NCBI GenBank assembly: GCA_965660545.1
Contig: CBFIAF010000004.1
Span: forward strand, 76,655-140,654
DNA length: 64,000 nt
Reading direction: 5' to 3'
Source: Alphaproteobacteria bacterium
Lineage (GTDB): Bacteria; Pseudomonadota; Alphaproteobacteria; Bin95
The notes beneath the pieces were generated by a model. That model was given only the letters and a program-made list of their open reading frames with translations. It did no database searches and was not told the origin of the DNA. Below, one piece after another: positions 14,487-54,587 of this stretch; positions within the stretch are counted from its first letter, which is position 1; the number at the start of each line of letters is the position of its first letter. A program made the translations under genes and the position numbers.

Positions 14487-14490
14487 TCTG

Positions 14491-38981: not shown

Positions 38982-39056
38982 TGGTGGCGGGGGAGGGATT
39001 TGAACCCCCGACCAAGAGATTATGATTCTCCTGCTCTACCGCTGAGCTACCCCGCC
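38982..39056 (-). tRNA. tRNA-Met (anticodon CAT), elongator-type or tRNA-Ile2 precursor
   Basis: Reverse complement GGCGGGGTAGCTCAGCGGTAGAGCAGGAGAATCATAATCTCTTGGTCGGGGGTTCAAATCCCTCCCCCGCCACCA folds as a cloverleaf with a G1-C72 pair, anticodon loop AUCAUAA and encoded CCA. Confidence 0.85.
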
Positions 39057-41782: not shown

Positions 41783-41862
41783 ACAGTAATTGCTTTCTCA
41801 GCTAAGTTTTTGCGTCCAGCCATCGAACGACCGCCAGATCGCAACGCTTTTCCTGAAGTTCT

Positions 41863-42105
41863 ATGCCGCATCTTTCCTCCACGCAAGAAATTGGGAGATC
41901 ATCCATGCAGCAAGCCGGTGAAGCCCTTTCGGGAAGTGACCAACGCCGATGTGAGCGTTATCCTTGCCCCGATTATGCCGAAGCGTTCTTCGCCAGCCAT
42001 TGGCGTACTTGTGGTGTCGCCGATATTTCAGCAGGCGGTACCTTGCTCGAAACCACGAACCGCCTGATGTGGGTTATATTATCACGCTTTTCGTCTAATA
42101 TGTGA
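41863..42105 (+). CDS. PilZ-signature small ORF (possibly truncated/frameshifted c-di-GMP receptor)
   Basis: Contains RxxxR (RRCER) and, 23 residues later, an exact DxSxxG (DISAGG), the diagnostic c-di-GMP-binding motifs of PilZ domains. The ORF ends only 21 residues later; a +1 frame continues to about 42288 with plausible PilZ C-terminal strands. Confidence 0.45.
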   Translation: MPHLSSTQEIGRSSMQQAGEALSGSDQRRCERYPCPDYAEAFFASHWRTCGVADISAGGTLLETTNRLMWVILSRFSSNM

Positions 42106-42413
42106 CAGAAATGCTTGGTGTTTTCATTCGGCACACGGGCGATTGATTCCTGCTTCCTTCGATCTGTTGCCGCTCACCGAGCACCACAAGGTTCTCAGTG
42201 TCAGCCTGTGGCAAGACGCCCGCTATCTGCTTAGCGCCCGCCTTTGGAGCCCGCTAAGGGTCACCGATAGCGGTTTTTTTGCATAGGCGGAAACTATCAT
42301 CGTCGCCGATGGGAACAAAAAATTCCTCATGTATTTCTCCTATCAAGCTTCCCCATGTAATACTCCGATGCTAAAGTAGCGCTTCGTCAAACCCACACTC
42401 AGGGAAACGCCCA

Positions 42414-43334
42414 ATGGTAAAGTCTATAATACAATTTATATTTGCAGCCGCCCTCGCGCTGACCGCGGTTATCGCGCAGCCCGCTACTGCGGCAAATCTT
42501 GGCCCCAAAACCTGCCAAGAATGCCATCGTGCTGAGTACGAGGTGTGGAAAGGCTCCGCGCACTTCAAGGCCTATCGTGGCGCGCACAAGCACAAAAATG
42601 CAAAAGCGATTGCGGCGGCTTCCGGCACTGGCAAATCCATGCGGAAAAACAAAACCTGCATGACTTGTCATTACACGGTAATTGGCAGCAAGGCGAGAGC
42701 GAAAGCTGGCCCGTCCTGCGAGAGCTGCCACGGCGGCGCTTCCAAGTGGGTAAAAATCCATAATGACCTTGGCGCTGGCGTGAAATCATCTGCGGATGAG
42801 TCTGCTGCCCACAAAAAGTCACGCCTGGCTGCAGCACAAAAAGCCGGCATGATCCATTCATCAATGGTTTACGACATCGCTGAGAACTGTAATTCCTGCC
42901 ACACCATGCAGAAGATTGACCCTGCAATGGCCGGTAAGCTGATCGATGCAGGCCATCCAATCAATGGTAGTTATGAGCTGGTGAAGTATAGCCAGGGTCA
43001 AGTTCGCCATCGCTTCTATCCGCCGAACATCACCGAGAACCAGAAAATGAACAAGGCGGAACTATCCCGCATGTTCTTGACCGGCCACGCTGCTGGTCTC
43101 GTCTATGCGACGAAGGTTCTGGAAAGTGCTGATAATGCCAAGTACAAAGCAGCTATGGAACAACGCGTCGTTGATGCAAAGAAAGCAATCGGCGCTGCTA
43201 AGGGTTCTATACCGGCTGCGGGCGCACTTTTGTCCTCACCGACGGAAGCAAACGCCAGGAAGTTCGTCGCGGCGTTGCAGGGCAAGGACCTGTCCGGTGC
43301 TGTCGGCGGCATGTTGCCCTCTGAGTACAAATAG
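42414..43334 (+). CDS. Periplasmic tetraheme cytochrome c (cytochrome c554-like CxxCH...W..S.H type)
   Basis: Signal peptide (MVKSIIQFIFAAALALTAVIAQPATAA). Four CxxCH motifs (CQECH, CMTCH, CESCH, CNSCH). First gene of the 7-gene operon. Confidence 0.85.
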   Translation: MVKSIIQFIFAAALALTAVIAQPATAANLGPKTCQECHRAEYEVWKGSAHFKAYRGAHKHKNAKAIAAASGTGKSMRKNKTCMTCHYTVIGSKARAKAGPSCESCHGGASKWVKIHNDLGAGVKSSADESAAHKKSRLAAAQKAGMIHSSMVYDIAENCNSCHTMQKIDPAMAGKLIDAGHPINGSYELVKYSQGQVRHRFYPPNITENQKMNKAELSRMFLTGHAAGLVYATKVLESADNAKYKAAMEQRVVDAKKAIGAAKGSIPAAGALLSSPTEANARKFVAALQGKDLSGAVGGMLPSEYK

Positions 43335-43458
43335 GGCGATACTATTCGCGAATCCTGAGGCGGTAATTAATGGATGTGTGCTGGGGTGGGCATGCCTTCA
43401 TTGATACTAGCCAAAGGCCCGCGGTTTTCCGCATCACGCGCTCCAGGGGGATGGCGCT

Positions 43459-45081
43459 TTGGCCTTAGCGACAAGATTAGCGCGTCCGCAACGTTGGGAC
43501 CGTCCGTTCGATCCAGGTATGACTGCGGCAGATTTGCAACACCTAAAACTTGATCCGGTTGTCGCCGCAATTGATGCAGACGCGTTCCCAGGGACTATTC
43601 CACTTGACGGCATTCTAGCTAACGATTCGCGGGTCATTCGTTACAAAGCCGGTGAAATCGTCGTTCGCGAAGGCGATTACGGTAATTCCGCATTTCTTAT
43701 TATGTCCGGCGCTTGCGACGTTGTCGTAAATCCGCCGCTGACTGATGCTCAGCTTGGCCGTCAAACTGAAGCGCCAGCTAGCATTGCGCGCGCGATTTCA
43801 CAACTCTGGAAGCGCACTGTCGTGCCGGAAGTTCGTGACGTCAGCCGCTATGGCGATATCGCCGTCACAGAGACAGATCATCAGGCCGTTTTTCTGCAAG
43901 ATTATGGCATTGTGCTTGGCGGGCGCAGCTTGCCGCGCCTTGGCGCGCAGCAAATGTTTGGTGAGTTGGCCGCTCTGGGCCGTACCCCCCGCGCGGCAAG
44001 CGTCGTTTGTGTCGAAGACGCAGAGGTGCTTGAGATTCGCTGGCAGGGCCTGCGGGAGCTTCGTCGGTTTGATGCCGGCTGGCGCCGCCAGATCGACACC
44101 AACTACCGCGCCAATGCGCTGATCTCGCACCTGCAGGACACGCTGCTGTTCGATGGTCTGTCCGACGACGCGCTCCAATCCATCGCAGACGCGACATTGT
44201 TTGAAACTTATGGCTCCTTTGACTGGAGTTCTTCGTTCCAGCGCGCCGAAAGCGATGCGCGCCTGGATACAGAACCCGTCATTGCGCGTGAAGGCGAATA
44301 TCCAGATGGCCTCTTGCTTATCCGTGCAGGATTTGGCCGCGTTTCTGTGCGCCAAGGGGCAGCAGAACGCACACTGACTTACTTATCTGCTGGCGATCAT
44401 TTCGGCTTGAGCGAGCTTTATGCTGGCTGCAAGGGCGGTGGATCACCGATGGAAGCAACACTCCGCGCGGTCGGTTACGTGGACGCCCTACGTGTGCCAA
44501 CTAAGGTACTCGAAGAGCATGTCTTCCCGCGCATGAACACAGCGCCGGATAGCTTCCTACAGTTTGCAGCCCGCCCCCTTGCAGATGATTCACTGCAGGA
44601 ATGGGCAATCGAAGAGCGTTTCATCAACGGCACCATGGCGATGCTGATTGATTTGGATAGATGCGTGCGCTGTGACGATTGCGTGCGGGCCTGTGCGTCC
44701 ACCCACGGCGGCAACCCTCGTTTTGTCCGCCACGGCAAGATCAATGACCATTGGATGGTCGCCAATGCCTGTATGCATTGCTCTGACCCTGTCTGTATGA
44801 TCGGCTGCCCAACGGGCGCTATTCACCGGACGCAGGCGGGCGGCTCTGTTGTCATCAATGACGACAGCTGCATCGGGTGCGGTACATGCGCCAATTCCTG
44901 CCCTTATAATAATATCCGCCTCGTCGAAATTCGGGACCTGTCTGGAGCCCCGGTTCAGGACGAAGCAACCGGGCAGCCCATTCGTAAGGCGACAAAATGT
45001 GATCTTTGCGCAGGTATTCCTGGTGGCCCCGCCTGTGAGCGCGCCTGCCCGCACGGCGCTCTCCAGCGCGTTGATTTTTAG
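43459..45081 (+). CDS. Cytoplasmic protein with two cyclic-nucleotide-binding (CAP-effector-like) domains fused to a four-cluster [4Fe-4S] ferredoxin module (HybA/NrfC/PsrB-like)
   Basis: N-terminal two-thirds carry two cNMP-binding-like domains (FLIMSGACDVV; GELAALGRTPRAASVVCVEDAEVLEI). C-terminal 150 aa has four Cys clusters: CVRCDDCVRAC, CMHCSDPVCMIGCP, CIGCGTCANSCP, CDLCAGIPGGPACERACP. No signal/TAT peptide and no HTH. Confidence 0.75.
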   Translation: MALATRLARPQRWDRPFDPGMTAADLQHLKLDPVVAAIDADAFPGTIPLDGILANDSRVIRYKAGEIVVREGDYGNSAFLIMSGACDVVVNPPLTDAQLGRQTEAPASIARAISQLWKRTVVPEVRDVSRYGDIAVTETDHQAVFLQDYGIVLGGRSLPRLGAQQMFGELAALGRTPRAASVVCVEDAEVLEIRWQGLRELRRFDAGWRRQIDTNYRANALISHLQDTLLFDGLSDDALQSIADATLFETYGSFDWSSSFQRAESDARLDTEPVIAREGEYPDGLLLIRAGFGRVSVRQGAAERTLTYLSAGDHFGLSELYAGCKGGGSPMEATLRAVGYVDALRVPTKVLEEHVFPRMNTAPDSFLQFAARPLADDSLQEWAIEERFINGTMAMLIDLDRCVRCDDCVRACASTHGGNPRFVRHGKINDHWMVANACMHCSDPVCMIGCPTGAIHRTQAGGSVVINDDSCIGCGTCANSCPYNNIRLVEIRDLSGAPVQDEATGQPIRKATKCDLCAGIPGGPACERACPHGALQRVDF

Positions 45082-45092
45082 GGGCACCAAGA

Positions 45093-45923
45093 ATGATCGT
45101 CCGAACAGTCAACAGCGTCCGGCCCTTCGGCTACACCCTGGCCGCCATCGGTGCCGCTGTGATCGCCAGTCTCGCTTATTATTCGCATCAGGAACACCTG
45201 AAGCTCAGTGACGCCACCTTCGTCACGGGTTGGGTATTGCTGACAGCCATGGTCTCCCTAGCGCTTTTCAACATCCGCAAGCGTCTTTCCATGATGTCAA
45301 TGGGTAGGGCAGCTTATTGGCTTGCGCTGCACGTTGTCGTTGGCCTATTCGCTGTCGGAATGTTCATTGTCCACACAGGTGGCATGTGGGCCACAGGCTT
45401 CTATGAGCAAGTGATGGCTGGATTGTTTTGGGCGACGGCCCTGTCAGGCGTCTTCGGCTGGCTATATCAGCGCGCGATGCCAAGGCGCCTTACACGCATT
45501 GGCTATGAAGTCGTTTATGAACGAATCCCGGCTGAAATTGCCGCCCTTCGCGAGGAAGCTGAAGAAGCCACCCTTGAAGGCGTAGGTGCTAGCGGCGAAC
45601 CAACCCTCGGCCGCTTCTATTCAGAAACCATGCAGGACTTCTTCCGTCGGCCGCGCTTTATGTTAAGCCACCTCTTTGGTGCAGGTGCAGCCCAACAGTG
45701 GGTTGACCTCCGGTTCCGCACGGTGCGCGGGCTAGTTGGCTCACAAGAAGAACCCGCCCTTGCCCGACTTGAAGCTGCCGCAAGACGCAAACTCTCTATA
45801 GACGCTCATTACGCCATTCAACGCTCCTTGAAGCTTTGGGTGGCGGTCCACGTCGTGCTATCTGCAGCGATGTTAACGCTTGCAGTATGGCACCTCATCC
45901 TGGTGCATGTGTACGCCCGATGA
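45093..45923 (+). CDS. Polytopic inner-membrane protein with conserved intramembrane histidines (candidate b-type heme/quinone-interacting subunit)
   Basis: 276 aa with about 5 predicted TM helices. His pairs sit inside helices (HVVVGLFAVGMFIVH; VHVVLSAAMLTLAVWHLILVH), with a roughly 120 aa soluble loop. The gene is 11 nt after the FeS gene and its stop overlaps the next start (ATGA). Confidence 0.55.
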   Translation: MIVRTVNSVRPFGYTLAAIGAAVIASLAYYSHQEHLKLSDATFVTGWVLLTAMVSLALFNIRKRLSMMSMGRAAYWLALHVVVGLFAVGMFIVHTGGMWATGFYEQVMAGLFWATALSGVFGWLYQRAMPRRLTRIGYEVVYERIPAEIAALREEAEEATLEGVGASGEPTLGRFYSETMQDFFRRPRFMLSHLFGAGAAQQWVDLRFRTVRGLVGSQEEPALARLEAAARRKLSIDAHYAIQRSLKLWVAVHVVLSAAMLTLAVWHLILVHVYAR

Positions 45924-48028
45924 CTGAAGACAAAAATCGCTTCGCCCACGATCGATCACCCTATGAGCGCCCGAATTTTCCTTTCCGGTGCGGCAGGGAG
46001 GCAGCCTTTGGCAAACCGTGCCCACGCGGCCCGAGCGCTGGCGGTAATTGCCAGGGGATCTCGGACTGCACGCCATTCCGGACACGCAAGATCGTAACAA
46101 ACACTGAAACCGGTGAAGAAACAGAGACCCAGCGTTGGGAATGCCGCCGCCCGCAACATGCTGGCGGCCCCTGTGCTGAAGGTCCACGGCCAGACGGCAC
46201 ATGCTCTTGCATCCATCCGCCATGTGCACCTAAGCTGACTATCCGGCGTCAGCGCGGCCGCTGGGCAATGCTTGCAGTTGCCGCAATGGTAGCCATGGTA
46301 TTGGCTTTTGTCGGCGCTGCTGGCGGTATCATTGGCCCTAAACCAGATGCAAACGGCATTCTTAGTCATGTTGGCTGGCCGAGTTCAGTCAACCCTGGTC
46401 CGCTTTCCGGCAAGCATGAACAATTCACGGCCAAAGACGGCTGTATTTCATGCCATGTCGGCCATTCAGACACATTAACAGGCTGGGCTGGTGCAATATT
46501 CGAGCGCACCACTATTTCTGAGTCCTGCGTCTCGTGCCACAGCTTCGGAGAGAAACAAGCTAATTCCGACCCTAAAGCCCAATCGCCAATGGCATTCGCC
46601 GCCCATAACACGAAATTCCCGAACCGCACGAATGCCCCAACAGCATCGTGCACGGGCTGCCACACGGAACATAAAGGTGTGGGTGCATCGATCACGCCGA
46701 TGGATGATGGCCAGTGCTCTGCATGCCACACCACCAAGTTCGACAGTTTCTCCAAATCCCATCCGGCGTTTGGGACAAATTTCCCGCATGAAAGTGCACG
46801 AACCATCAAGTTTCAGCATGGCAAGCACCTAGAAACGCATTTTGTAGACCAGCGCTATATCGATAGAGCGCCAAAGAATGGCTGCATCTCCTGCCATACA
46901 GACCAAGTTGATGGGCGTTTGCTACCGGGCAGTTTTGAGAATGGCTGTGCCGCATGTCATGAACTTGCGATTAAAGAACAGGGAATGGTCGTCTTCGGCC
47001 TTCCTGAATTGAGTGACCCTGAATTGACTGCAGAAGCCCGTGACTCATGCGGCTTTCCTGTGCCACAGCGTGAGCCGGCCCGTGCGACCCTTGAAGCCCT
47101 GGCTGAGGCACTTCCGACAATGCAGGCGCTTGGTGAAAACGCCGAGTCTGGCAACCTGAATGGCGTCATGACTGCAGTTGAGGCCTTAAGTGAGGCCCAG
47201 ACCGCGATTGCCGAAGCGCGGGATGAGCTTGCAGAGGCTGTCGACATGTCAGAAGCCGTTTCCCTTGATTCGCTCTCCCCGATCGCAGCATTCCTTCTGG
47301 CTGTTCCGGCTGATGATGCAGATGAATATAGCGAAGCAGCAGCAGCCTTCCTGATTGCCGCTGCCGCCGACGGGCAGGTCCCGCTTGCCGAAGCAATCGA
47401 CGCTAAGGGTGGTGATGCAACCGCGCTGCTGGCAGGCCTTTCACCCGAGTTAGTGACGGAAGTTACTTGCGCTTGGGCCGCAAACACGGAATATGAACCT
47501 AAGCAAGACCCTGAACCGGGCGCTGGCTGGGCTGCGCAAGAGCTGCAAGTGTCTTATCTGCCAACAGGCCATGCGGATGCTGTGACCAAGGGATGGATTG
47601 CACTTGGTCTAGCAAATCGTGGCAGTCAAGATGAAGGTGTCGAAGCTTTTGCTGACCTCGTGCTCAGTGCGGGCGACGGGCCGGGTCGTTGCTTTAAGTG
47701 TCACGTCGCACCAGCGGCAGATGCTGAAAAACAAGTCGTACAATGGGCTATTCCACGCGCAGATGTTCGCCCATTCACAACTTTCAATCATGATCCGCAC
47801 TTAAATGTACTAGATCAGGGAGCCGGATGTGCGACATGCCATAGTCAGTTGGAGCCGGGCGCAACCTTGGCTGATGGGCAATCTCGCCCAGGGCCGCATG
47901 CAAACGACTTCAAGCCGATCGATCAAGCAACTTGCAAAGATTGTCACCGCCCGGGCGCGGTTCGGCAGGATTGCGCACTTTGCCACCGCTACCATAGCAA
48001 TCCATCCATCCGGAAACGGACGTTGTGA
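45920..48028 (+). CDS. Membrane-anchored multiheme cytochrome c (10 CxxCH) with Cys-rich N-terminal region
   Basis: Ten CxxCH motifs arranged 6+4, split by a roughly 200 aa Ala/Glu-rich low-complexity linker. One hydrophobic helix (WAMLAVAAMVAMVLAFVGAAGG) sits after a roughly 110 aa N-terminal region containing 9 Cys (C-x10-C-x8-C-x5-C ... C-x9-C-x7-C-x-C-x4-C). The start at 45920 is inferred from the ATGA overlap. Confidence 0.75.
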   Translation: MTEDKNRFAHDRSPYERPNFPFRCGREAAFGKPCPRGPSAGGNCQGISDCTPFRTRKIVTNTETGEETETQRWECRRPQHAGGPCAEGPRPDGTCSCIHPPCAPKLTIRRQRGRWAMLAVAAMVAMVLAFVGAAGGIIGPKPDANGILSHVGWPSSVNPGPLSGKHEQFTAKDGCISCHVGHSDTLTGWAGAIFERTTISESCVSCHSFGEKQANSDPKAQSPMAFAAHNTKFPNRTNAPTASCTGCHTEHKGVGASITPMDDGQCSACHTTKFDSFSKSHPAFGTNFPHESARTIKFQHGKHLETHFVDQRYIDRAPKNGCISCHTDQVDGRLLPGSFENGCAACHELAIKEQGMVVFGLPELSDPELTAEARDSCGFPVPQREPARATLEALAEALPTMQALGENAESGNLNGVMTAVEALSEAQTAIAEARDELAEAVDMSEAVSLDSLSPIAAFLLAVPADDADEYSEAAAAFLIAAAADGQVPLAEAIDAKGGDATALLAGLSPELVTEVTCAWAANTEYEPKQDPEPGAGWAAQELQVSYLPTGHADAVTKGWIALGLANRGSQDEGVEAFADLVLSAGDGPGRCFKCHVAPAADAEKQVVQWAIPRADVRPFTTFNHDPHLNVLDQGAGCATCHSQLEPGATLADGQSRPGPHANDFKPIDQATCKDCHRPGAVRQDCALCHRYHSNPSIRKRTL

Positions 48029-48036
48029 GGATTAAG

Positions 48037-49809
48037 ATGATGGAAGAGAGAAAGATGGAATTTGGAATCCGCCCCTTGGGGCGCCGCCTTCTAATTGCTG
48101 GCGCTTTCGCCGCTGCGGTATTTGGCATGCCAATTACAGCAGTAGCAGCCGAAAAAGAAGATCCGCATGCGGATCTTATGGCCGAGGAAAGCTACCCAAC
48201 AGCCGCCCAATGTGGTGCCTGTCACACCCAGGTCTATCGCGAATGGGCGTCGTCTAACCACGCATACGCATCGATTTCGCCGATGTTCCACAAGTTCGAG
48301 CAGAAGATTAATGATCTCTCGAGCGGCACCATCCGAGGCTTCTGCGTACGGTGCCATCAACAGATCGGCACGCAGCTCAATGAACGCCGCGACCTCCCGC
48401 TTTGGGAACGCAATCAGATTTCACGCGAAGGCATTTCCTGCGTGACGTGCCACCGCGTCCGTGAAGAATTCGGCAAGGTCAACGGCGAACGCCGGATCAT
48501 CCCAGGCCAGGTCTACACGCCTGTCAGCGGTGTTGGCGATGGCAAAAAGCTAAAGGAAATCATTGAGAACCGTAGCGAATATCGTGTTGCGGTTAGCGAA
48601 AAGGAACGCGGGGCCCAGATTCACACGGGCGTTTACAAGTTCCCACAGATTTCTAAGTCAGAATTCTGTGTGTCTTGTCACCAGGTCGCTGTGAACCCAG
48701 GCATCAAGCTTGAAGTTGTTTGGGAGCAGTATAGAAACTCCCCAGCAGCCGCTAATGGCGTCACGTGTCAGGATTGCCATATGGGCAAAGTGCCAGGCCG
48801 GGCTGACGGTTATGCAACCGGGCCCGTCGCAATCGTTAATGGTGAAGAAATCAATCCGGACCGCAGGCACTCCAACCATGCCTTCTACGGCCCTGGCTAC
48901 CCAATTGCTCATCCTGGCATCTTCCCACACAACCCAGATGCAGCTGAAATTCCCATCGAAGACTGGCTGGAATTCGACTACCGCTCTAAGTGGGGCTCGG
49001 AAGAATTTGAAGAGAAAGTCGCCAACGGCGAGATTGATGAAGACAGCCTGCCAGACGCATGGTCCGATTCAGTTGACCGTGAGGAAGCTTGGGAAATCAT
49101 CCAGGAGAACGTCGGACTTCTGGAAGAAAAACGCGACCTTCGCCGTCAAGTGATGGAAAATGGTTCTCGTCTTGATGGCCCGTTCTTCGCTAGCGCGCCA
49201 AAACAAGGGTCCTCCCTCAGCTTTGACATCAAACTGACCAACACAGATGACGGCCATAACCTGCCGTCTGGTTCTCTCGGTGCCCAGCCTGAAATCTGGC
49301 TGAATGTTGCTGTCGTATCGCCCAGCGGCAAGACAGTATGGGAATCTGGTTACGTTGATGGGAATGGCGATATGGCCGACATTCACTCCCTAGAGGTAAG
49401 AGCGGGCAAAATCGAATATGATGACCAGCTTTTCAACTTGCAAACCAAGTTTCTATTCACGAACGTTAAGGGGACTGAACGCGAATGGTATCTGCCAATA
49501 AATATCGATATCGATCAGCTTCCATTCATCCGCCCAGCAAACGTGCCGACGACTATCCTAAACCATGCGCCATTTATCCGCATGGAAGGTCGTTCGATTC
49601 CACCACTTGGGTTTCGCAACGCTAGCTACACCGTGCCGGCAGATGCGTTGACGGAAAAAGGTACTTACAAAATGGCCGTCCGACTGCGGAGCCGCGCCGA
49701 ACCGATCTACTTCATGCGGTTCGTCGATTCGACGCCGGAAATGGAAGAAGCCATGAACAGCTGGATGCTTGATTTCCATTCCTACACCGTGGAATTTGAA
49801 GTCAACTGA
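48037..49809 (+). CDS. Secreted pentaheme cytochrome c with large heme-free C-terminal domain
   Basis: Signal peptide. Five CxxCH (CGACH, CVRCH, CVTCH, CVSCH, CQDCH), all in the first roughly 280 aa. A roughly 300 aa C-terminal domain has no heme motif. GAGGA RBS before the ATG at 48037; the ORF track starts at a GTG at 48025 that overlaps the upstream stop. Confidence 0.8.
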   Translation: MMEERKMEFGIRPLGRRLLIAGAFAAAVFGMPITAVAAEKEDPHADLMAEESYPTAAQCGACHTQVYREWASSNHAYASISPMFHKFEQKINDLSSGTIRGFCVRCHQQIGTQLNERRDLPLWERNQISREGISCVTCHRVREEFGKVNGERRIIPGQVYTPVSGVGDGKKLKEIIENRSEYRVAVSEKERGAQIHTGVYKFPQISKSEFCVSCHQVAVNPGIKLEVVWEQYRNSPAAANGVTCQDCHMGKVPGRADGYATGPVAIVNGEEINPDRRHSNHAFYGPGYPIAHPGIFPHNPDAAEIPIEDWLEFDYRSKWGSEEFEEKVANGEIDEDSLPDAWSDSVDREEAWEIIQENVGLLEEKRDLRRQVMENGSRLDGPFFASAPKQGSSLSFDIKLTNTDDGHNLPSGSLGAQPEIWLNVAVVSPSGKTVWESGYVDGNGDMADIHSLEVRAGKIEYDDQLFNLQTKFLFTNVKGTEREWYLPINIDIDQLPFIRPANVPTTILNHAPFIRMEGRSIPPLGFRNASYTVPADALTEKGTYKMAVRLRSRAEPIYFMRFVDSTPEMEEAMNSWMLDFHSYTVEFEVN

Positions 49810-49888
49810 TTGGGGATCGCCTGCGGCGCGCCAAGCTGCCAAAGAGAACAGTTAAGGCGCGCCGCAGGCGAACGAGGAGAATAGAGGC

Positions 49889-51415
49889 GTGACACCAAGT
49901 TTTCTAAAGATGACCGGGCGCATTGCAATGGCGACAGCGGCTTCCGCACTGGCGATGATGGTCGCCACTGGCGGCCCTGCATATGCGGCGAGTGCCCATG
50001 ACGACAGTCCGCGCAAGATGGATCCTAATGTCAAACCGTCAGAGCATGACTCTGATGTCTTCAAGGCGGATCCAACATACGAAGAGAAAGTGTATGACGC
50101 TGAGCGCCAACTCGAAATCTATGGCGGCAAGCGCAACATTGAGGAGCCACGCCCGATCCTAGAAGTTGGTCGTCCGCAATATGTCGAAGGTCCTTTCGAC
50201 GAAGGCATTAATGTAATTGGCGAAAAGAACCTTTTGTTCCCATCGTTTTCAGTTTTTGGTGACGTCCGTACAGCGGTAGCCGCGAATGACGTTGGCGGTG
50301 ATGTTGTGTACGAGTTTGCCAACCGCCTGAACCTGGACCTCGACCTTAAGCTAACCGCCACAGAACGTGTTCACGGCTTCTTCCGCCCGATCGACGAGAA
50401 CGGTAAGTTCATAGGATATCGGACCGGCGATAAGAGGGGCAATAATGGCCGTGACGGTAAGCTCGATGCAAACCCAGAAACATTATTCTTTGAAGGTGAT
50501 ATTGGTGCCATATATGGCGGGTTAGCAGACGAATACACAACCTTTGACCTGCCAATCGCATTTGGTTTGACACCCTTCGTCATGCAGAATGGGCTTTGGG
50601 TTGATGAGGCCTTTGTTGGGGGCGGCATATCACTCGCTGCAATGAACAGTCGTACACTTGATATCACAAACATGGACATCACCTTCTTTGGTGGTTTCGA
50701 TGAAATCGATTCACCGGCATTCGTTGGCCAGGACGGTGTCCTAGATACAGACGACGTATCAATTTATGCCGTAGCCGCTTTCGTCGATTGGTTCGAAGGC
50801 TATTCTGAGTTCGGTATCGGCTATGTCGACGGAAGAGAGCAACTCAACGATATTGACTATTTCAACTTTACCGGTGCCTATACGTCACGGTATGGCGGCT
50901 GGCTCTCCAACTCCGTCAGGCTATTTGGCGCTGTGGGTCAAGATACAAACGGCCGTGCTAAAACGGCCGATGGCTTTGCCTTACTCATAGAAAACTCTTT
51001 GATCACGTCCAAGCCAGATGTCTTTGTTCCCTATTTCAATGGCTGGGTTGGTATCGATAAGCCGCAATCCCTCGCACGCAACAACGGCGGGCTATTGAAG
51101 AACACCGGCATCACGTTCGAGAACGACGGCATGACCTCTTTTCCGACGCTGGATGATACCGCACAAGACACATTCGGTGGTGCCATCGGCGTCAACTATC
51201 TGTTCAGTCTAGACCAGCAGCTCGTGGTTGAAGCGTCTACGGTTCAAAGACTTGATACTGCCTCACCTGCTCAGGGTGGTCAGTATGCTGTTGGCTTCCG
51301 CTATCAGATCCCAGTCACGAACCGGGTTATCCTGCGTACAGACGGTATCTACGGCATTCGGGAAAGCCAGGAAGACATTGGCGGCGTTCGCTTCGAGCTG
51401 CGCGTTAAATTCTAA
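49889..51415 (+). CDS. Outer-membrane beta-barrel protein (porin-like; candidate cytochrome conduit)
   Basis: Signal peptide (MTGRIAMATAASALAMMVATGGPAYAASA), alternating amphipathic beta-strand pattern, Gly/aromatic-rich, and a C-terminal ...RFELRVKF ending in Phe, the OMP sorting signature. Confidence 0.65.
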   Translation: MTPSFLKMTGRIAMATAASALAMMVATGGPAYAASAHDDSPRKMDPNVKPSEHDSDVFKADPTYEEKVYDAERQLEIYGGKRNIEEPRPILEVGRPQYVEGPFDEGINVIGEKNLLFPSFSVFGDVRTAVAANDVGGDVVYEFANRLNLDLDLKLTATERVHGFFRPIDENGKFIGYRTGDKRGNNGRDGKLDANPETLFFEGDIGAIYGGLADEYTTFDLPIAFGLTPFVMQNGLWVDEAFVGGGISLAAMNSRTLDITNMDITFFGGFDEIDSPAFVGQDGVLDTDDVSIYAVAAFVDWFEGYSEFGIGYVDGREQLNDIDYFNFTGAYTSRYGGWLSNSVRLFGAVGQDTNGRAKTADGFALLIENSLITSKPDVFVPYFNGWVGIDKPQSLARNNGGLLKNTGITFENDGMTSFPTLDDTAQDTFGGAIGVNYLFSLDQQLVVEASTVQRLDTASPAQGGQYAVGFRYQIPVTNRVILRTDGIYGIRESQEDIGGVRFELRVKF

Positions 51416-51463
51416 TCACGATCGTATTGCTAGCCAAAATGGCACCGAGATTGGGGAAGAACG

Positions 51464-52729
51464 ATGGATAATTTGGCGAACTATGTCGCCATAGGTGCAG
51501 CCGGGCTGCTGGGCCTTTACATTTTGTCTCTGCTGATGGGCTCGCTCCGTCAGCAGAGCCAAATGGCGCGGCATTATGAGGAACAATCACAGCTATTCCG
51601 CGCACGTGCGGAAGGCTTGCAGAGGATCCGTGCTGAAGAGATCGAGAAAACCCAAAACACCTGGGCAGGCCTTCGGAAATTCAAAGTTGCCCGTAAGATC
51701 AATGAGATCACAGATTGCCACTCCATCTACCTTGAACCTCATGACGGTCGGCCCCTACCGCCGTTTGAGCCAGGCCAGTTTCTAACGTTCAAGTTTGCTG
51801 TGCCCGATCAGCCTAGCGACGTAATACGTTGCTACTCCCTGTCAGACGCACCTGGCCGTGACTACTACAGGATTACCGTCAAGAAGGTGCCACCGCCCCG
51901 TGGCAAGCCTGAAATAGCACCTGGTGTGTCCTCCACCTTCGTAAATGAAGTCTTGAATGAAGGCGATATAATTGATGTACGTGCGCCCAATGGCGGCTTC
52001 TATCTGAAGCGTGAACATAAACGTCCAGTCGTCCTAATCGGTGGCGGCGTTGGCATCACACCAGTGCTCAGCATGCTGAACTACATTGTGGAGCATGAGC
52101 CGCAGCGGGAAACATGGTTCTTCTTTGGGGCGCCCAATAAAGCCGGCCATATTATGAAGGATCACCTAGCCCAAATTGCTGCGGAAAATCCTAATATCCG
52201 CATGAACATTTGCTACAGCGACCCATCAGATGACGATGTGTTTGGGGAAGATTACGACCATCACGCCCGCGTTTCCGTAGAGCTGTTCAAGAAAGTCCTG
52301 CCTTCTAACAATTTCGAATATTACTTCTGCGGCCCACCGCCAATGATGAATGCGCTTGATGCGGACCTCAAAGCTTGGGGCGTACCAGAAGCCGATATTC
52401 ACTCTGAAGGCTTTGGCCCTGCTTCAGTTAAGAAGCCCAAACCACCTGCTGTAGAAGGTGCTGCAGAATTAGCATCTGTATCGGTAACGTTTGCTAAATC
52501 TGGCAAGACATTGGATTGGACGCCTGCTGCTGGAACAATTCTTGATTTGGCGGAAGCAAACGGTGTTGATGTTGCTTCGGGTTGCCGGGCCGGCAGCTGT
52601 GGTACTTGCCTCACCGCCGTTATAGAAGGCGATGTGGATTACGCAACGCCGCCAGACGCTCCGATCGAAAATGGCTCTTGCCTCGCGTGTGTCGGCACCC
52701 CGAAAGGGCCAATCAAGATAAACGCCTAA
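51464..52729 (+). CDS. Membrane-anchored FNR-family flavoprotein reductase with C-terminal plant-type [2Fe-2S] ferredoxin domain
   Basis: N-terminal TM helix (VAIGAAGLLGLYILSLLMGS), FAD motif RCYSLSD, NAD(P) motif GGGVGITP, C-terminal CRAGSCGTCL...CLACV 2Fe-2S motif. Last gene of the operon. Confidence 0.75.
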   Translation: MDNLANYVAIGAAGLLGLYILSLLMGSLRQQSQMARHYEEQSQLFRARAEGLQRIRAEEIEKTQNTWAGLRKFKVARKINEITDCHSIYLEPHDGRPLPPFEPGQFLTFKFAVPDQPSDVIRCYSLSDAPGRDYYRITVKKVPPPRGKPEIAPGVSSTFVNEVLNEGDIIDVRAPNGGFYLKREHKRPVVLIGGGVGITPVLSMLNYIVEHEPQRETWFFFGAPNKAGHIMKDHLAQIAAENPNIRMNICYSDPSDDDVFGEDYDHHARVSVELFKKVLPSNNFEYYFCGPPPMMNALDADLKAWGVPEADIHSEGFGPASVKKPKPPAVEGAAELASVSVTFAKSGKTLDWTPAAGTILDLAEANGVDVASGCRAGSCGTCLTAVIEGDVDYATPPDAPIENGSCLACVGTPKGPIKINA

Positions 52730-52752
52730 ACCAAGTTCGATCTGAAAAGATT

Positions 52753-52790
52753 ACGGTCCGCAACCAACTGGTTTCGGGCCGTATTTTTTT
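52753..52790 (+). terminator. Rho-independent terminator closing the cytochrome operon (possibly bidirectional)
   Basis: Stem ACGGTCCG...CGGGCCGT followed by ATTTTTTT, 24 nt after the reductase stop. The convergent CoA-transferase gene ends at 52822. Confidence 0.6.
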
Positions 52791-52821: not shown

Positions 52822-54024
52822 CTAAACGATCCCACTTGCCTTCAGTGATGCAATATCCTCACTGGAAAGGTTGAGGACTTCACAAAGGATTTCATCCGTG
52901 TGATGCCCAATAGGCGGACCGGCATGGGCAATCCGCCCAGGCGTGCCCGTTAGATTAGGAGAAACCCCAGGCATTGGTATGTCGCCCAATTCCTCATCCG
53001 GAACGGTCACAATGTTCTTGCGGGCCTCAAAATGGGGATCTTCAGCGATATCAGCGGCGGTATAGATCCCGCCGAAGGGTACATTGCCGCCAACAAGCCG
53101 CGCTTCGATCTCCGCGAAGGCGTGCGCGCTAATCCAATCTCCCAGCAGCGCTTCAAGTTCATCAGCCCGCTCAATTCTGGCAGCGCTTTGGGCGTAGCGG
53201 GGATCTGTCGCAAGTTCTGGCATGCCAATGGCGTCTGCCAATCTTTTAAACACGCCATCACCACCAGCCGCAATCTGGACGTAGCGCCCATCTTTGGTTT
53301 CGAATGTCCCGGCGGGAGAGAATGTAGGATTGCGGTTGCCAATTCGCTCCCGGACCTCCCCATTCATCATATACTTGGAGATTAGGTCTGCTGTAATGCG
53401 GAATGGCGCTTCGTAGAGGCCAAGGTCAATCATCTGCCCCACTCCCCCCTGCGCATCACGCTGATAGAGCGCTAACATCGCTGAAAGCGCACCAAAAGTG
53501 CCGGTATTATAGTCTGCCGTCGGAAAAGCAGGGCGAACGGGGAAGCGATCTGGGAACCCGGTTGGGTACATATAGCCCGAGAAACCAAGCGCAATCCGAT
53601 CATAGCCCGATCGCTTGGAGTATGGCCCCGTTTGCCCATAACCAGACACGCGAACCATAATCAGACGTGGATTAACGGCCTTTAGGTCTTCCCAGCCTAT
53701 ATTCCATCGCTCCAACGTGCCCGGCGTGAAGTTCTCCATCACGATGTCTGCAGTCGCGGCCAGGTCCCTTAGAATCTTCTGGCCTTCAGGAACCCGCAGA
53801 TTGAGCGTGATCGATTTCTTGTTGCGGCCCTCGATTAGCCAGTTTGGTGGTCGACCAGCTGCACCATCAACAGGCGTGCCACGCAACGCATCGCCGCGAC
53901 CAGGCTGCTCGACTTTAATGACCTCAGCGCCAAAATCGCCAAGCAACGTGGCACCGAACGGTCCAGCAATCAGCGTGCCGATGTCCAGCACACGCACACC
54001 GGCAAGTGGCAAGGGCGTCGTCAT
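52822..54024 (-). CDS. CaiB/BaiF family III CoA-transferase
   Basis: N-terminus MTTPLPLAGVRVLDIGTLIAGPFGATLLGDFGAEVIKVEQP is the family signature. 400 aa. Confidence 0.85.
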   Translation of the reverse strand: MTTPLPLAGVRVLDIGTLIAGPFGATLLGDFGAEVIKVEQPGRGDALRGTPVDGAAGRPPNWLIEGRNKKSITLNLRVPEGQKILRDLAATADIVMENFTPGTLERWNIGWEDLKAVNPRLIMVRVSGYGQTGPYSKRSGYDRIALGFSGYMYPTGFPDRFPVRPAFPTADYNTGTFGALSAMLALYQRDAQGGVGQMIDLGLYEAPFRITADLISKYMMNGEVRERIGNRNPTFSPAGTFETKDGRYVQIAAGGDGVFKRLADAIGMPELATDPRYAQSAARIERADELEALLGDWISAHAFAEIEARLVGGNVPFGGIYTAADIAEDPHFEARKNIVTVPDEELGDIPMPGVSPNLTGTPGRIAHAGPPIGHHTDEILCEVLNLSSEDIASLKASGIV

Positions 54025-54512: not shown

Positions 54513-54587
54513 TGGTGACCCCAACGGGGATCGAACCCGTGTTTCCGGCGTGAAAGGCCAGCGTCCTAACCGCTAGACGATAGGGCC
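54513..54587 (-). tRNA. tRNA-Glu (anticodon TTC)
   Basis: Reverse complement GGCCCTATCGTCTAGCGGTTAGGACGCTGGCCTTTCACGCCGGAAACACGGGTTCGATCCCCGTTGGGGTCACCA. Anticodon loop CUUUCAC, T-loop GGTTCGATCC, encoded CCA. Confidence 0.85.

What the first reader, a model, noticed from the sequence alone, without database searches (positions are those of the whole stretch)
42414..52790. Seven-gene operon encoding a putative cytoplasm-to-outer-membrane redox conduit (FNR/2Fe-2S, 4x[4Fe-4S], membrane His-protein, 4+10+5 c-hemes, OM barrel)
Seven co-directional genes are packed with 11-nt gaps or ATGA overlaps and closed by a clear terminator. They combine elements normally found in separate systems: (i) periplasmic multiheme cytochromes totalling 19 CxxCH sites; (ii) an outer-membrane beta-barrel reminiscent of the MtrB/PioB/OmbB porin component of porin-cytochrome complexes; (iii) a cytoplasmic four-cluster ferredoxin module of the HybA/NrfC/PsrB type, which normally partners with quinol-oxidising membrane subunits; (iv) a His-rich polytopic membrane protein unlike NrfD/PsrC; and (v) a membrane-anchored FNR-like NAD(P)H flavoprotein with its own 2Fe-2S domain. 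Read together they suggest an NAD(P)H-to-extracellular (or reverse, Fe(II)/mineral-to-NAD(P)+) electron path that could bypass the quinone pool. I do not recognise this gene combination from any described Mtr, Pio, Pcc, ACIII or Nrf system. No terminal-reductase catalytic motif is present (no CxxCK, no octaheme HAO-type ORF), which favours electron conduction over a known enzymatic reduction.
Basis: partly seen in the sequence, partly recalled or inferred. Interest (0 to 1): 0.9.

Follow-up and report, generated by a model that had tools for sequence, protein, structure and literature searches.

The report
ptd multiheme electron-export gene cluster
The seven genes are real and form one conserved unit, but it is the already-named, functionally uncharacterised "ptdABCDEFG" cluster of marine bacteria. 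It most likely carries electrons from cytoplasmic NAD(P)H across the inner membrane to a five-heme protein docked under a small outer-membrane channel, not through a Mtr-type conduit.

Summary
Seven co-directional genes lie at 42414-52729, with 4+10+5 = 19 CxxCH sites, tight junctions and a strong terminator.

The claim that the combination is undescribed does not hold. The gene content is that of the ptdABCDEFG operon named by Elbon, Stewart & Glass (bioRxiv 10.1101/2023.11.21.568154), whose function is unknown. The window carries the commonest order, D-E-F-G-A-B-C.

New here:
- The pentaheme PtdA and barrel PtdB are the invariant core. They are always adjacent and are fused into one protein in one lineage.
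- PtdB models as an 18-strand, substrate-porin-sized barrel, not a 26-strand MtrB-like sheath.
- PtdF carries two invariant HX13H motifs, the signature of two b hemes.
- Four non-orthologous NAD(P)H flavoprotein inputs serve the same core. One is a three-gene system whose only input is a NOX-like ferric-reductase/FNR/2Fe-2S protein.

Together these point to signal-gated export of NAD(P)H electrons that bypasses the quinone pool. The terminal oxidant is unknown. PtdA has exactly five invariant non-motif His, which suggests bis-His hemes and outer-sphere reduction.

Verdict: a new member of a known but uncharacterised kind.

The parts
42414..43334 (+). ptdD: periplasmic c554-like tetraheme cytochrome with a signal peptide and an Ala/Lys-rich C-terminal tail
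   Evidence: Has 4 CxxCH. Matches Pfam Cytochrome_C554 at E 2.9e-13 and NCBIfam c554/CycA at 1.5e-12, below that model's cut-off. Four invariant non-motif His (50, 116, 181, 199) fit four bis-His hemes. N-terminal hydrophobic signal.
43459..45081 (+). ptdE: cytoplasmic protein with three cNMP-binding-type domains and a C-terminal four-cluster [4Fe-4S] ferredoxin module
   Evidence: Matches cNMP_binding at E 2.1e-24 in 3 stretches, and Fer4 families. Aligns to nearly the full length of HydN, and also to DmsB, HybA and NrfC models, all below their cut-offs. Sixteen invariant Cys fall in four groups. The phosphate-binding-cassette residues G168, E169 and R178 are invariant in 56-57 of 57 sequences. 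No signal peptide or TM helix.
45093..45923 (+). ptdF: inner-membrane protein with 5 TM helices, two HX13H motifs (putative two b hemes) and a 120-aa cytoplasmic helical domain
45920..48028 (+). ptdG: decaheme cytochrome with a cytoplasmic N-terminal 8-Cys domain, one TM helix and a periplasmic heme domain with a variable Ala/Glu-rich insert
   Evidence: Has 10 CxxCH and 10 invariant non-motif His. Eight invariant Cys (24, 34, 44, 50, 75, 85, 95, 102) form 2 x Cx9Cx9Cx5-6C. The TM helix is at 116-134, preceded by 5 K/R. The start overlaps the ptdF stop as ATGA. The N-terminal domain has no Pfam family.
48040..49809 (+). ptdA: periplasmic pentaheme cytochrome with a heme domain (about residues 40-326), a variable linker and a highly conserved C-terminal domain (337-589). 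It is the most conserved protein of the set
   Evidence: Has 5 CxxCH and no other Cys. The only significant PDB match is T. tepidum cytochrome c552, 5ZE8, at E 1.4e-7 for the single sequence and 6.7e-8 for the profile, covering the heme domain only. Median identity to the window is 0.63, against 0.36-0.52 for the other six proteins. Across the broad family the invariant residues are the 5 CxxCH, then H74, H195, H280, H291 and H406, and E225.
49889..51415 (+). ptdB: outer-membrane beta-barrel of about 18 strands with a conserved N-terminal periplasmic extension of about 80 aa. It is the partner of PtdA
51464..52729 (+). ptdC: membrane-anchored FNR-type NAD(P)H flavoprotein with a C-terminal plant-type 2Fe-2S domain
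   Evidence: Matches NAD_binding_1 at E 1.3e-20 and Fer2 at 3.9e-12. Its architecture is like Hcr and PaaE, and its FNR part is like the Hmp reductase domain. Invariant motifs are RxYS (122-125), GGxGxxP (193-200), CGP (289) and C374/C379/C382/C409. One N-terminal TM helix, with K/R after it. It is 43% identical (E 9e-101) to the FNR-Fer2 part of a NOX-like FRD-FNR-Fer2 protein that follows ptdA-ptdB in Puniceicoccus.
52753..52790 (+). Intrinsic terminator that closes the cluster
   Evidence: A stem-loop followed by U7, with dG -24.6 kcal/mol and z -5.25. The next gene is convergent, at 52822-54024 on the - strand.
42219..42281 (+). Hairpin plus U7 downstream of the upstream PilZ-like ORF. It marks the 5' limit of the ptd transcription unit, so the promoter should lie between 42281 and 42413
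   Evidence: Seen in the sequence and its fold. The block is conserved in L005 and L006 although their upstream genes differ. The fold z-score is only -1.4 and there is no Rfam family.

Best explanation
The locus is a ptd (penta/tetra/deca-heme) cluster. It encodes an electron-export chain that is fed by NAD(P)H, does not use quinone, and is gated by signals.

Proposed path:
1. PtdC oxidises NAD(P)H in the cytoplasm (FAD, then 2Fe-2S).
2. Electrons pass to the four [4Fe-4S] clusters of PtdE. Its N-terminal cyclic-nucleotide-binding domains probably gate the flux.
3. PtdF carries them across the inner membrane on two b hemes (two HX13H motifs).
4. The membrane-anchored decaheme PtdG and the c554-like tetraheme PtdD relay them through the periplasm.
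5. They reach the pentaheme PtdA, which is docked on the periplasmic face of PtdB.

PtdB is an 18-strand outer-membrane channel, too narrow to sheathe a cytochrome. It lets the still-unknown oxidant, or the product, pass. PtdA most likely reduces that solute by outer-sphere transfer from bis-His hemes.

Shown here: gene content, motifs, conservation, synteny, the fusions and the size class of the barrel model.

Inferred: cofactor occupancy, the order of carriers, the direction of flow, the gating and the substrate.
For: Identity: the gene content matches the published ptd description item by item. Homologues lie on contigs and MAGs listed in that paper's Table S7 (L027, L082).

One functional unit: the seven families co-occur in 31 complete DEFGABC loci, 5 CEFGABD loci and some divergent arrangements. 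They also co-occur in ABCDEFG clusters whose PtdF is only 30-35% identical. No other neighbouring gene is conserved.

NAD(P)H input and outward direction: four non-orthologous flavoprotein solutions feed the same PtdA-PtdB core.
- PtdC.
- A YpdA/TrxR-like FAD domain fused to the cNMP-FeS protein, in about 16 of the 80 loci.
- A separate Pyr_redox-FHA-Fer2 protein.
- A single NOX-like protein of Ferric_reduct, FNR and Fer2 domains, in a three-gene system in Puniceicoccus vermicola and in L093. PtdC is 43% identical to its dehydrogenase part.
Established knowledge: characterised NOX, FRE and MsrQ-Fre systems and class-I FNR-Fe2S2 reductases move electrons from NAD(P)H outward.

Membrane step: four invariant His form two HX13H motifs on TM3 and TM5 of PtdF, and the model is confident. 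The type-2 F' protein keeps them (hhalign probability 98.5%).

Relay proteins: PtdG has 10 hemes and 10 invariant distal His. PtdD has 4 and 4.

PtdA-PtdB complex: the two genes are always adjacent. A natural fusion protein exists: residues 19-537 match PtdA at E 1e-121, and residues 627-1067 match the PtdB profile at probability 99.2%. The junction is kept in frame in a second, diverged assembly. PtdB has an invariant but unstructured N-terminal extension.

Gating: the cNMP pocket residues are invariant. FHA domains appear on E, on G' or on separate proteins in other variants. Cyclases or Ser/Thr kinases lie next to some loci.
Against: - Nothing here shows cofactor binding, protein contacts, co-transcription or activity.
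- The PtdB model has only moderate confidence (pLDDT 65.6).
- PtdF has no significant fold match in the PDB, and the window's own PtdF reaches only E 0.024 on DUF4405.
- No PtdA structure was predicted, so the assignment of the five invariant His as distal ligands is an inference.
- PtdA's high conservation, invariant E225 and invariant GH loop could equally mark a catalytic site.
- A path of 19 c-type hemes seems excessive for reducing a soluble periplasmic substrate, and the three-gene variant works without PtdG and PtdD.
- FNR-type and TrxR-type flavoproteins can run in reverse.
- The D-E (124 nt) and A-B (79 nt) gaps could hold internal promoters.
Confidence: 0.6

Rival explanations
1. Mtr/Pio/PCC-type porin-cytochrome conduit. 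Electrons cross the outer membrane through a cytochrome held inside PtdB and reduce solid Fe(III) or Mn(IV), or take electrons from Fe(II) or minerals. This is the reading of the first reader and the suggestion of Elbon et al.
For: The cluster has a barrel and 19 c-type hemes. PtdA and PtdG give weak hits to the MtrC/MtrF domain II/IV and DmsE-family models. The barrel is genetically locked to a multiheme protein. A fused cytochrome-barrel exists, which recalls Cyc2. Elbon et al. note that iron reduction occurs at the ODZ depth where ptdAB is transcribed.
Confidence: 0.15
2. PtdA is a small-molecule enzyme of the NrfA, HAO or MccSep kind. It binds an N- or S-oxyanion or oxide (nitrite, NO, hydroxylamine, polysulfide, sulfite, selenite or iodate) at a heme. 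PtdB imports that substrate, and NAD(P)H pays for detoxification or assimilation.
For: PtdA is the most conserved Ptd protein. Its heme domain is homologous to c552, 5ZE8. That fold family includes the polysulfide reductase MccSep/ExtKL, whose gene lies in the same cluster as the porin gene extI. The invariant motifs IKLEVVWEQYR and DGHNxPSG recall MccSep's distal Cys region and its D-G-Sec-P loop. The FNR part of PtdC resembles the Hmp and Hcr reductases, which serve NO and hydroxylamine enzymes. Transcription is high at the ODZ nitrite maximum.
Against: PtdA has no CxxCK, no free Cys and no Sec. Its NF040886 (ExtKL) score is 35.8 against a cut-off of 250, and MccSep (9wt8) matches only at E 0.14. 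Exactly five non-motif His are invariant across the broad family, enough to make all five hemes six-coordinate. Small anions do not normally need a dedicated 18-strand channel.
Confidence: 0.15
3. Reverse operation. PtdA oxidises a low-potential periplasmic donor that enters through PtdB, and electrons run inward through D, G, F and E to reduce NAD(P)+ at PtdC. This would generate membrane potential and reductant without using quinone.
For: Bis-His c hemes and FeS clusters are low-potential and reversible. T. tepidum c552 is a low-potential cytochrome suspected of a role in sulfur oxidation. Elbon et al. report ptd in nitrite oxidisers and sulfur oxidisers, which need reverse electron flow. 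TrxR-type FNRs are reversible (established knowledge).
Against: The minimal variant uses a NOX/FRE-type protein, a family known only to export electrons. PtdC has the architecture of NAD(P)H-oxidising class-I reductases. Inward electron transfer works against the membrane potential and needs a donor well below -320 mV, and no such donor is indicated. Most hosts are aerobic heterotrophs.
Confidence: 0.08
4. There are two unrelated operons that merely lie side by side: D-E-F-G and A-B-C.
For: The order is circularly permuted between lineages, DEFGABC against ABCDEFG. The two blocks sit on opposite strands in a few loci (L050, L059). A-B occurs without the rest in a few loci.
Against: The two blocks co-occur across several phyla and down to 30% identity, with no other conserved neighbour. 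Where C is missing, another NAD(P)H flavoprotein is present.
Confidence: 0.02

Closest known systems
ptdABCDEFG operon (Elbon, Stewart & Glass, bioRxiv 10.1101/2023.11.21.568154), defined bioinformatically in marine Alphaproteobacteria UBA11136 and other phyla
   Same: All seven components match. These are the pentaheme with its C-terminal domain, the porin, the FAD/NAD(P) oxidoreductase, the tetraheme, the cNMP/4Fe-4S protein, the ferric-reductase-like TM protein and the decaheme. Homologues share contigs or MAGs with that paper's Table S7.
   Different: The gene order here is D-E-F-G-A-B-C, a circular permutation. It is the commonest order among the 80 loci fetched. My counts give four FeS clusters in PtdE, not two. 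The porin is sized as an 18-strand channel. That paper leaves the function 'completely unknown'.
Geobacter ExtHIJKL: the ExtI porin-like protein with ExtKL = MccSep, a pentaheme selenoprotein polysulfide reductase (bioRxiv 10.1101/2025.11.18.688581; PMC11976967)
   Same: A pentaheme cytochrome of the c552 fold family, with a C-terminal domain that reaches toward a heme, is encoded in the same gene cluster as an OM porin-like protein.
   Different: PtdA lacks the heme-ligating Cys and the Sec/Cys. Its sequence match to MccSep is insignificant (E 0.14), and its ExtKL model score is 35.8 against 250. Homology between PtdB and ExtI could not be tested. Nothing read here mentions an NAD(P)H or cNMP module in the Geobacter cluster.
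NOX/FRE ferric-reductase superfamily and the two-component MsrQ-Fre / MsrPQ system
   Same: NAD(P)H is oxidised by an FNR-type flavoprotein, and electrons cross the membrane on two b hemes held by two HX13H motifs to reach an extracytoplasmic acceptor. A ptd variant uses a true Ferric_reduct-FNR fusion.
   Different: In the window the dehydrogenase (PtdC) and the di-heme protein (PtdF) are separate. PtdF is not detectably homologous to the FRD domain. A four-cluster FeS protein lies between them, and 19 c hemes follow.
MtrCAB / PioAB / MtoAB / PCC3-PCC4 porin-cytochrome complexes (He et al. 2017, PMC5566968)
   Same: Multiheme cytochromes are encoded together with an OM barrel. PCC3 and PCC4 also include an inner-membrane protein with two HX13H motifs.
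   Different: The barrel has 18 strands, not about 26. There is no MtrA/DmsE-family or MtrC-family member at the family cut-offs. The input is NAD(P)H rather than quinol.
Four-cluster ferredoxin subunits (NrfC, HybA, DmsB, PsrB, HydN, DsrO)
   Same: Sixteen Cys in four groups. The alignment to HydN is nearly full length, and there are partial alignments to DmsB, HybA and NrfC.
   Different: PtdE is cytoplasmic, with no Tat signal. It is fused to three cNMP-binding-type domains. Its membrane partner is a di-heme protein instead of a NrfD/PsrC-type subunit. All of its scores are below the family cut-offs.
HAO - cytochrome c554 - cM552 relay of nitrifiers
   Same: PtdD is a c554-like tetraheme placed between a multiheme 'head' protein and a membrane-anchored multiheme.
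   Different: There is no HAO-type octaheme. The score on the c554 equivalog model is 47 bits against a cut-off of 400. The membrane end is not a NapC/NirT quinol dehydrogenase.

Membership tests
ptdABCDEFG cluster (Elbon et al.) | [quoted passage not shown] | tested here: met
   Has 5 CxxCH. Matches 5ZE8 at E 1.4e-7 and 6.7e-8. A conserved C-terminal domain of about 250 aa is present.
ptdABCDEFG cluster (Elbon et al.) | PtdB: porin encoded next to PtdA | tested here: met
ptdABCDEFG cluster (Elbon et al.) | PtdC: FAD/NAD(P)-binding oxidoreductase | tested here: met
   NAD_binding_1, FAD_binding_6 and Fer2 hits, with invariant RxYS, GGxGxxP and CGP motifs.
ptdABCDEFG cluster (Elbon et al.) | PtdD tetraheme and PtdG decaheme | tested here: met
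   Has 4 and 10 CxxCH, all invariant across the families.
ptdABCDEFG cluster (Elbon et al.) | [quoted passage not shown] | tested here: met
   Matches cNMP_binding at E 2.1e-24 and Fer4 families. Has 16 invariant Cys, which indicates four clusters rather than the two the paper states.
ptdABCDEFG cluster (Elbon et al.) | PtdF: ferric-reductase-like transmembrane protein | tested here: met
   Two invariant HX13H motifs on TM3 and TM5. Family members hit DUF4405 (17 of 30) and Ferric_reduct (2 of 30). The window protein itself has no significant Pfam hit.
ptdABCDEFG cluster (Elbon et al.) | Orthology to loci listed in the paper | tested here: met
   L027 is the F. sediminum contig QPMH01000006 listed in Table S7; window PtdA and PtdB are 61% and 52% identical to its products. 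L082 comes from MAG SS_bin_59, which is also listed.
MtrCAB/PioAB-type porin-cytochrome conduit | A large barrel of about 26 strands that can enclose a decaheme | tested here: not met
MtrCAB/PioAB-type porin-cytochrome conduit | A periplasmic MtrA/DmsE-family decaheme and an extracellular MtrC/OmcA-family lipoprotein | tested here: not met
   TIGR03508 scores 35.9 bits against a cut-off of 192.2. TIGR03507 scores 19.6 against 209.3. No lipobox is present.
MccSep/ExtKL pentaheme polysulfide reductase | Distal Cys ligand on heme 2 and a catalytic Sec/Cys in the C-terminal loop | tested here: not met
   PtdA has no Cys outside the five CxxCH and no in-frame UGA. NF040886 scores 35.8 against 250. 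9wt8 matches at E 0.14.
NrfA-type pentaheme nitrite reductase | A CxxCK active-site heme and family-level sequence similarity | tested here: not met
   There is no CxxCK. Cytochrom_C552 matches only residues 233-257, at 24.8 bits. TIGR03152 scores 16.4 against 692.
NOX/FRE ferric-reductase-domain superfamily | Two HX13H motifs on TM3 and TM5 that bind two b hemes | tested here: met
   H80/H94 and H253/H267 are invariant. Heme binding itself cannot be tested here.
NOX/FRE ferric-reductase-domain superfamily | Sequence or fold membership in PF01794 | tested here: inconclusive
Four-cluster ferredoxin subunits (NrfC/DmsB/HybA/HydN) | Four Cys groups (16 Cys) that bind four [4Fe-4S] clusters | tested here: met
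   C402-412, C438-450, C471-481 and C514-530 are invariant. The alignment spans HydN positions 9-156 of 181.
Four-cluster ferredoxin subunits (NrfC/DmsB/HybA/HydN) | A score above a family cut-off, or partnership with a NrfD/PsrC-type membrane subunit | tested here: not met
   All NCBIfam scores are far below their cut-offs. The membrane partner, PtdF, has no NrfD match.

The most novel reading that the evidence does not exclude
Ptd may be a bacterial, second-messenger-gated 'extended NOX'. In this reading, cytoplasmic NAD(P)H drives electrons, with help from the membrane potential and without the quinone pool, onto a bis-His pentaheme reductase clamped to a dedicated outer-membrane channel.

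Its job would be to reduce a solute that passes through that channel. Candidates are Fe(III) or Mn(III) chelates (reductive metal acquisition), redox-active organics, or O2 (regulated production and export of superoxide).

That would be a new class of envelope-spanning redox machine. It would be present in more than 500 species across at least seven phyla. It would be a candidate for two marine activities whose enzymes are still unknown: the 'dark' extracellular superoxide production of marine bacteria (from my own knowledge of that literature; no tool result here bears on it) and the iron reduction reported in oxygen-deficient zones.
Probability: 0.35. Interest if true: 0.85.

Novelty: new member of a known kind. 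Interest (0 to 1): 0.6.

Why it matters
The cluster is widespread. PtdB relatives occur in 504 of the species-representative genomes scanned, and PtdA-like proteins occur from Pseudomonadota to Verrucomicrobiota, Acidobacteriota, Rhodothermales and Planctomycetota. Elbon et al. report that ptdAB is well transcribed in an oxygen-deficient zone. No function is known.

If the proposed mechanism holds, many aerobic and facultative marine bacteria spend NAD(P)H on a regulated periplasmic or outer-membrane reduction that no current model of marine redox cycling includes. Fe, Mn, N, S, iodine and reactive oxygen are all candidates.

The analysis also makes the system easier to test:
- It identifies PtdA-PtdB as the output core.
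- It finds a three-gene minimal version in a cultured organism (Puniceicoccus vermicola).
- It finds a natural PtdA-PtdB fusion.
- It lists cultured seven-gene hosts: Hwanghaeella grinnelliae here, and Roseibium aggregatum, Tistlia consotensis and Sulfidibacter corallicola in the published table.

Tried and rejected
- Rfam, gathering mode on the whole window and E-value mode on 41800-42450: only two tRNAs and one chance hit. There is no riboswitch or leader family upstream of ptdD. The conserved upstream hairpin folds no better than shuffles (z -1.4).
- Automatic promoter and terminator scan: counts were no higher than in shuffles, and it missed the real terminator. I found that by reading the sequence and confirmed it by folding.
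- Foldseek against afdb50 to test a PtdB-ExtI relationship: the library was not available.
- Mapping MccSep's distal Cys239 onto PtdA through c552. The single extra Cys of c552 aligns with PtdA E225. But phmmer does not align c552 with MccSep, so the three-way equivalence stays an inference and is not used as evidence.
- Chen et al. 2019, the paper on the c552 structure, is not in the library. The heme ligation of 5ZE8 could therefore not be checked.
- Clustering of neighbouring genes over 80 loci to find substrate clues such as transporters, regulators or maturation genes: nothing beyond the ptd genes recurs widely. CHASE2-cyclases occur in 4 loci.
- Literature searches for a functional study of ptd or an equivalent cluster: only the Elbon et al. 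description was found.
- A Fur, Irr or RirA box in 42281-42413, looked for by eye: none seen. This was not tested formally.

Full report
**1. What is in the window.** Seven + strand ORFs fill 42414-52729. With the starts that independent gene callers chose on identical metagenome contigs, the junction gaps are 124, 11, -4 (ATGA), 11, 79 and 48 nt. CxxCH counts are 4 (306 aa), 10 (702 aa) and 5 (589 aa). There is no CxxCK and no CxxxCH. After the last gene lies a hairpin followed by U7, at 52753-52790. It folds at -24.6 kcal/mol with z = -5.25, and the next gene is convergent. Upstream, a hairpin plus U7 at about 42219-42281 follows a small PilZ-like ORF, so the promoter should lie in 42281-42413. 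No Rfam family matches in that region.

**2. The seven products.** The names follow the literature (see section 3).

- **PtdD** (42414-43334) has a signal peptide and a c554-like tetraheme domain. Four non-motif His are invariant.
- **PtdE** (43459-45081) has no signal peptide. The module has 16 invariant Cys in four groups and aligns with four-cluster proteins such as HydN, DmsB, HybA and NrfC, all below the family cut-offs. In domain 1 the phosphate-binding-cassette residues G168, E169 and R178 are invariant in 56-57 of 57 relatives.
- **PtdG** (45920-48028) has a cytoplasmic N-terminal domain with eight invariant Cys (2 x Cx9Cx9Cx5-6C; no Pfam family). One TM helix follows, then a periplasmic decaheme domain with ten invariant non-motif His.
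- **PtdA** (48040-49809) has a signal peptide and five CxxCH, and no other Cys. A variable linker separates the heme domain from a very conserved C-terminal domain that has no Pfam family.
- **PtdB** (49889-51415) has a signal peptide and no known family. It ends in ...RVKF. The AF2 model has pLDDT 65.6 and 18 strands.
- **PtdC** (51464-52729) has one N-terminal TM helix, an FNR module with invariant RxYS, GGxGxxP and CGP motifs, and a plant-type 2Fe-2S domain.

**3. It is already described.** A full-text search led to Elbon, Stewart & Glass, bioRxiv 10.1101/2023.11.21.568154. They named a 'ptdABCDEFG' operon made of these parts:
- PtdB, a porin
- PtdC, a FAD/NAD(P) oxidoreductase
- PtdD, a tetraheme
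- PtdE, a cNMP-domain protein with 4Fe-4S clusters
- PtdF, a ferric-reductase-like TM protein
- PtdG, a decaheme

They found it in marine and saline Alpha- and Gammaproteobacteria, Nitrospirales, Planctomycetes and others. ptdAB is transcribed at about 500-900 FPKM in ODZ MAGs. They state that its function 'remains completely unknown'. The window matches every item. Its order, D-E-F-G-A-B-C, is a circular permutation of theirs. No other paper in the library mentions ptd.

**4. Conservation and distribution.**
- PtdB relatives form at least 1287 clusters at 90% identity, all unnamed. They occur in 504 species-representative genomes.
- Among the best 80 loci, tblastn gives DEFGABC in 31 complete loci and about 18 contig-truncated ones. 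It gives CEFGABD in five (Hwanghaeella, including the isolate H. grinnelliae Gri0909) and divergent two-block layouts in two or three.
- The most distant PtdF relatives, at 30-35% identity, still sit in ABCDEFG clusters.
- All-against-all clustering of neighbouring ORFs finds no other widely conserved gene.
- Median identity to the window is highest for PtdA (0.63) and lowest for PtdG (0.36).

**5. PtdA-PtdB is the core.** ptdA and ptdB are adjacent in essentially every fetched locus that holds both genes. A scan of 1.84 billion representative proteins with PtdA gave 2469 hits.

One hit, P0206 (1098 aa), is a natural fusion. Residues 19-537 match PtdA (40% identity, E 1e-121). Residues 627-1067 match the PtdB profile (hhalign probability 99.2%, E 9e-20), and the protein ends in ...VQVLF. 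A second, diverged assembly keeps the same junction in frame. The termini of an even-stranded OM barrel face the periplasm (established knowledge), so the fusion places PtdA at the periplasmic mouth of PtdB.

Other homologues carry an N-terminal TM helix and a long low-complexity tether. This again argues for a periplasmic location. PtdB's N-terminal 80 residues or so are nearly invariant yet unstructured in the model. I read this region as a docking segment; that is an inference.

**7. Four different NAD(P)H inputs serve one output.**
- (i) The window type uses PtdC.
- (ii) About 16 of the 80 loci lack PtdC. Instead they have an E' protein of about 800 aa, made of a YpdA/TrxR-like FAD/NAD(P)H domain, two cNMP domains (one matching the CRP model at E 8e-28, below its cut-off) and the FeS module. 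It is followed by F', which keeps both HX13H motifs (hhalign probability 98.5%), and by a decaheme G' with an FHA-like N-terminus.
- (iii) In Acidobacteriota and Rhodothermales the order is A-B-D(double c554)-E-F-G. A double-FHA protein and a Pyr_redox-FHA-Fer2 flavoprotein follow. L091 and L092 show the same A-B-D-E-F-G core, but the loci end before any flavoprotein gene; Ser/Thr kinases flank L092.
- (iv) In Puniceicoccus vermicola and in L093 the whole system is three genes. These are PtdA-like, PtdB-like (hhalign probability 99.9%) and one 570-aa protein with Ferric_reduct (52 bits, above the gathering score), FAD_binding_6, NAD_binding_1 and Fer2 domains. Window PtdC is 43% identical (E 9e-101) to the FNR-Fer2 part of that protein.

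Non-orthologous replacement of the flavoprotein, with the output kept constant, is strong comparative evidence that NAD(P)H is the cytoplasmic partner. The NOX/FRE-type variant and the class-I-reductase architecture of PtdC favour outward flow. All characterised members of those families oxidise NAD(P)H (established knowledge).

**8. What PtdA may do.** Its only significant solved relative is T. tepidum cytochrome c552, 5ZE8, and the match covers the heme domain only. According to two papers read here, that fold family includes the Geobacter enzyme ExtKL/MccSep. MccSep is a polysulfide reductase with a His/Cys-ligated heme 2 and a Sec on a loop from the C-terminal domain, and its gene lies in the same cluster as the porin gene extI.

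PtdA has no free Cys and no Sec, and its match to MccSep is insignificant. In an alignment spanning both PtdA subfamilies, down to 33% identity, the invariant residues are the five CxxCH, exactly five other His (74, 195, 280, 291 and 406) and E225. Five distal His for five hemes suggests that all the hemes are bis-His. That fits outer-sphere electron transfer to a redox-active solute better than binding of a small anion to an open heme. H406 lies in the invariant DGHNxPSG loop of the C-terminal domain, which recalls MccSep's D-G-Sec-P loop. This parallel was not verified structurally.

**9. Gating.** Three observations suggest that the flux is switched by second-messenger or phospho-Thr signals:
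- the invariant cNMP pocket in PtdE;
- FHA domains on E, on G' or on separate proteins in other variants;
- CHASE2-cyclases in four loci, and Ser/Thr kinases flanking L092.

That would be sensible for a pathway that drains NAD(P)H and, by moving electrons outward, is assisted by the membrane potential and consumes it (inference).

**10. Verdict.** The locus is a typical member of the ptd family, a known but uncharacterised kind. The best mechanism (confidence about 0.6) is gated export of NAD(P)H electrons along C, E, F, G, D and A, with PtdA docked under the PtdB channel and reducing an unknown solute.

Rivals:
- a Mtr-like conduit across the outer membrane (0.15);
- catalysis on an N- or S-oxyanion at a PtdA heme (0.15);
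- inward, NAD(P)+-reducing operation (0.08);
- two unrelated operons (0.02).

Interest is moderate to high. The function is open, the system is widespread and transcribed in the ocean, and the minimal three-gene version and the cultured hosts make it directly testable. The gene combination itself is not new.

Noticed in passing
window 41905-42105 (+); L005:2019-2303: A small ORF lies directly upstream of ptdD. It carries PilZ motifs (RRxxxR and DxSxxG). In the close relative L005 it is a full 94-aa PilZ-domain protein (Pfam E 2.6e-13). In the window a 1-nt indel near 42064 truncates it to 66 aa, which means either a pseudogene or an assembly error. It hints at c-di-GMP signalling next to ptd in this lineage only.
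   Followed up: partly
window 42185-42290: A non-coding block of about 100 nt ends in a hairpin plus U7. It is about 90% conserved in L005 and L006 although the genes upstream of it differ. It may be the PilZ terminator, or part of the ptd leader or promoter region. It has no Rfam match, and its fold z-score is only -1.4.
   Followed up: partly
window 35391-37400 (- strand): A DAO-type FAD oxidoreductase appears split into three overlapping ORFs (36254-36730, 35791-36339, 35391-35861). Next to it is what looks like only the C-terminal fragment of an amidase (36894-37400). This is a patch of frameshifts or gene decay. I judged it from the translations alone.
   Followed up: no
P0206 and P0338 (representative library); no window coordinates: These are natural single-chain PtdA-PtdB fusions from a high-GC lineage. 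They are 'fused cytochrome-porins' with five hemes and an 18-strand-type barrel. P0338 (1871 aa) looks like a gene-calling run-on into the next, c554-like gene.
   Followed up: yes
L088 (Puniceicoccus vermicola JACHVA010000040) 10001-15465; L093 9001-15257: A three-gene minimal system: PtdA-like, PtdB-like and a NOX-like Ferric_reduct-FNR-Fer2 protein. In L093 it is followed by a ResB/CcsA cytochrome c biogenesis gene.
   Followed up: yes
L027 (Ferruginivarius sediminum NZ_QPMH01000006): Table S7 of Elbon et al. lists PtdA to PtdG on this contig. Within +/-10 kb I find only ptdA (with an N-terminal extension) and ptdB. I find no tetraheme, no decaheme and no cNMP-FeS gene. The neighbour is a CHASE2-adenylate/guanylate cyclase.
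   Followed up: partly
L013, L019, L027, L037; L092: CHASE2-type nucleotide cyclases lie within a few kb of ptd genes in 4 of the 80 loci. Ser/Thr protein kinases flank the cluster in L092. FHA domains are fused to E (L086), to G' (L014, L079) or occur as separate proteins (L089, L090).
   Followed up: partly
L082 (JABDKW010000030) compared with paper Table S7 (JABDKW010000018): The MAG 'Gammaproteobacteria SS_bin_59' seems to carry ptd clusters on two different contigs. That would mean two copies in one genome, or a binning artefact.
   Followed up: no
P0189-P0194 (relatives of window 48040-49809): Several PtdA homologues have N-terminal extensions of 250-660 aa. These are rich in Pro, Gln and Ala and begin with a TM helix, so they look like inner-membrane tethers of the planctomycete type. 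P0199 adds a monoheme domain of the planctomycete cytochrome type.
   Followed up: partly
window 38985-39056 and 54516-54587 (- strand): Two tRNA genes flank the wider region (Rfam, 70.3 and 60.7 bits). There is no sign of an integrase or of direct repeats that would suggest the ptd cluster lies on an island. GC content is slightly lower across 48-58 kb (0.515-0.54 against about 0.56).
   Followed up: no
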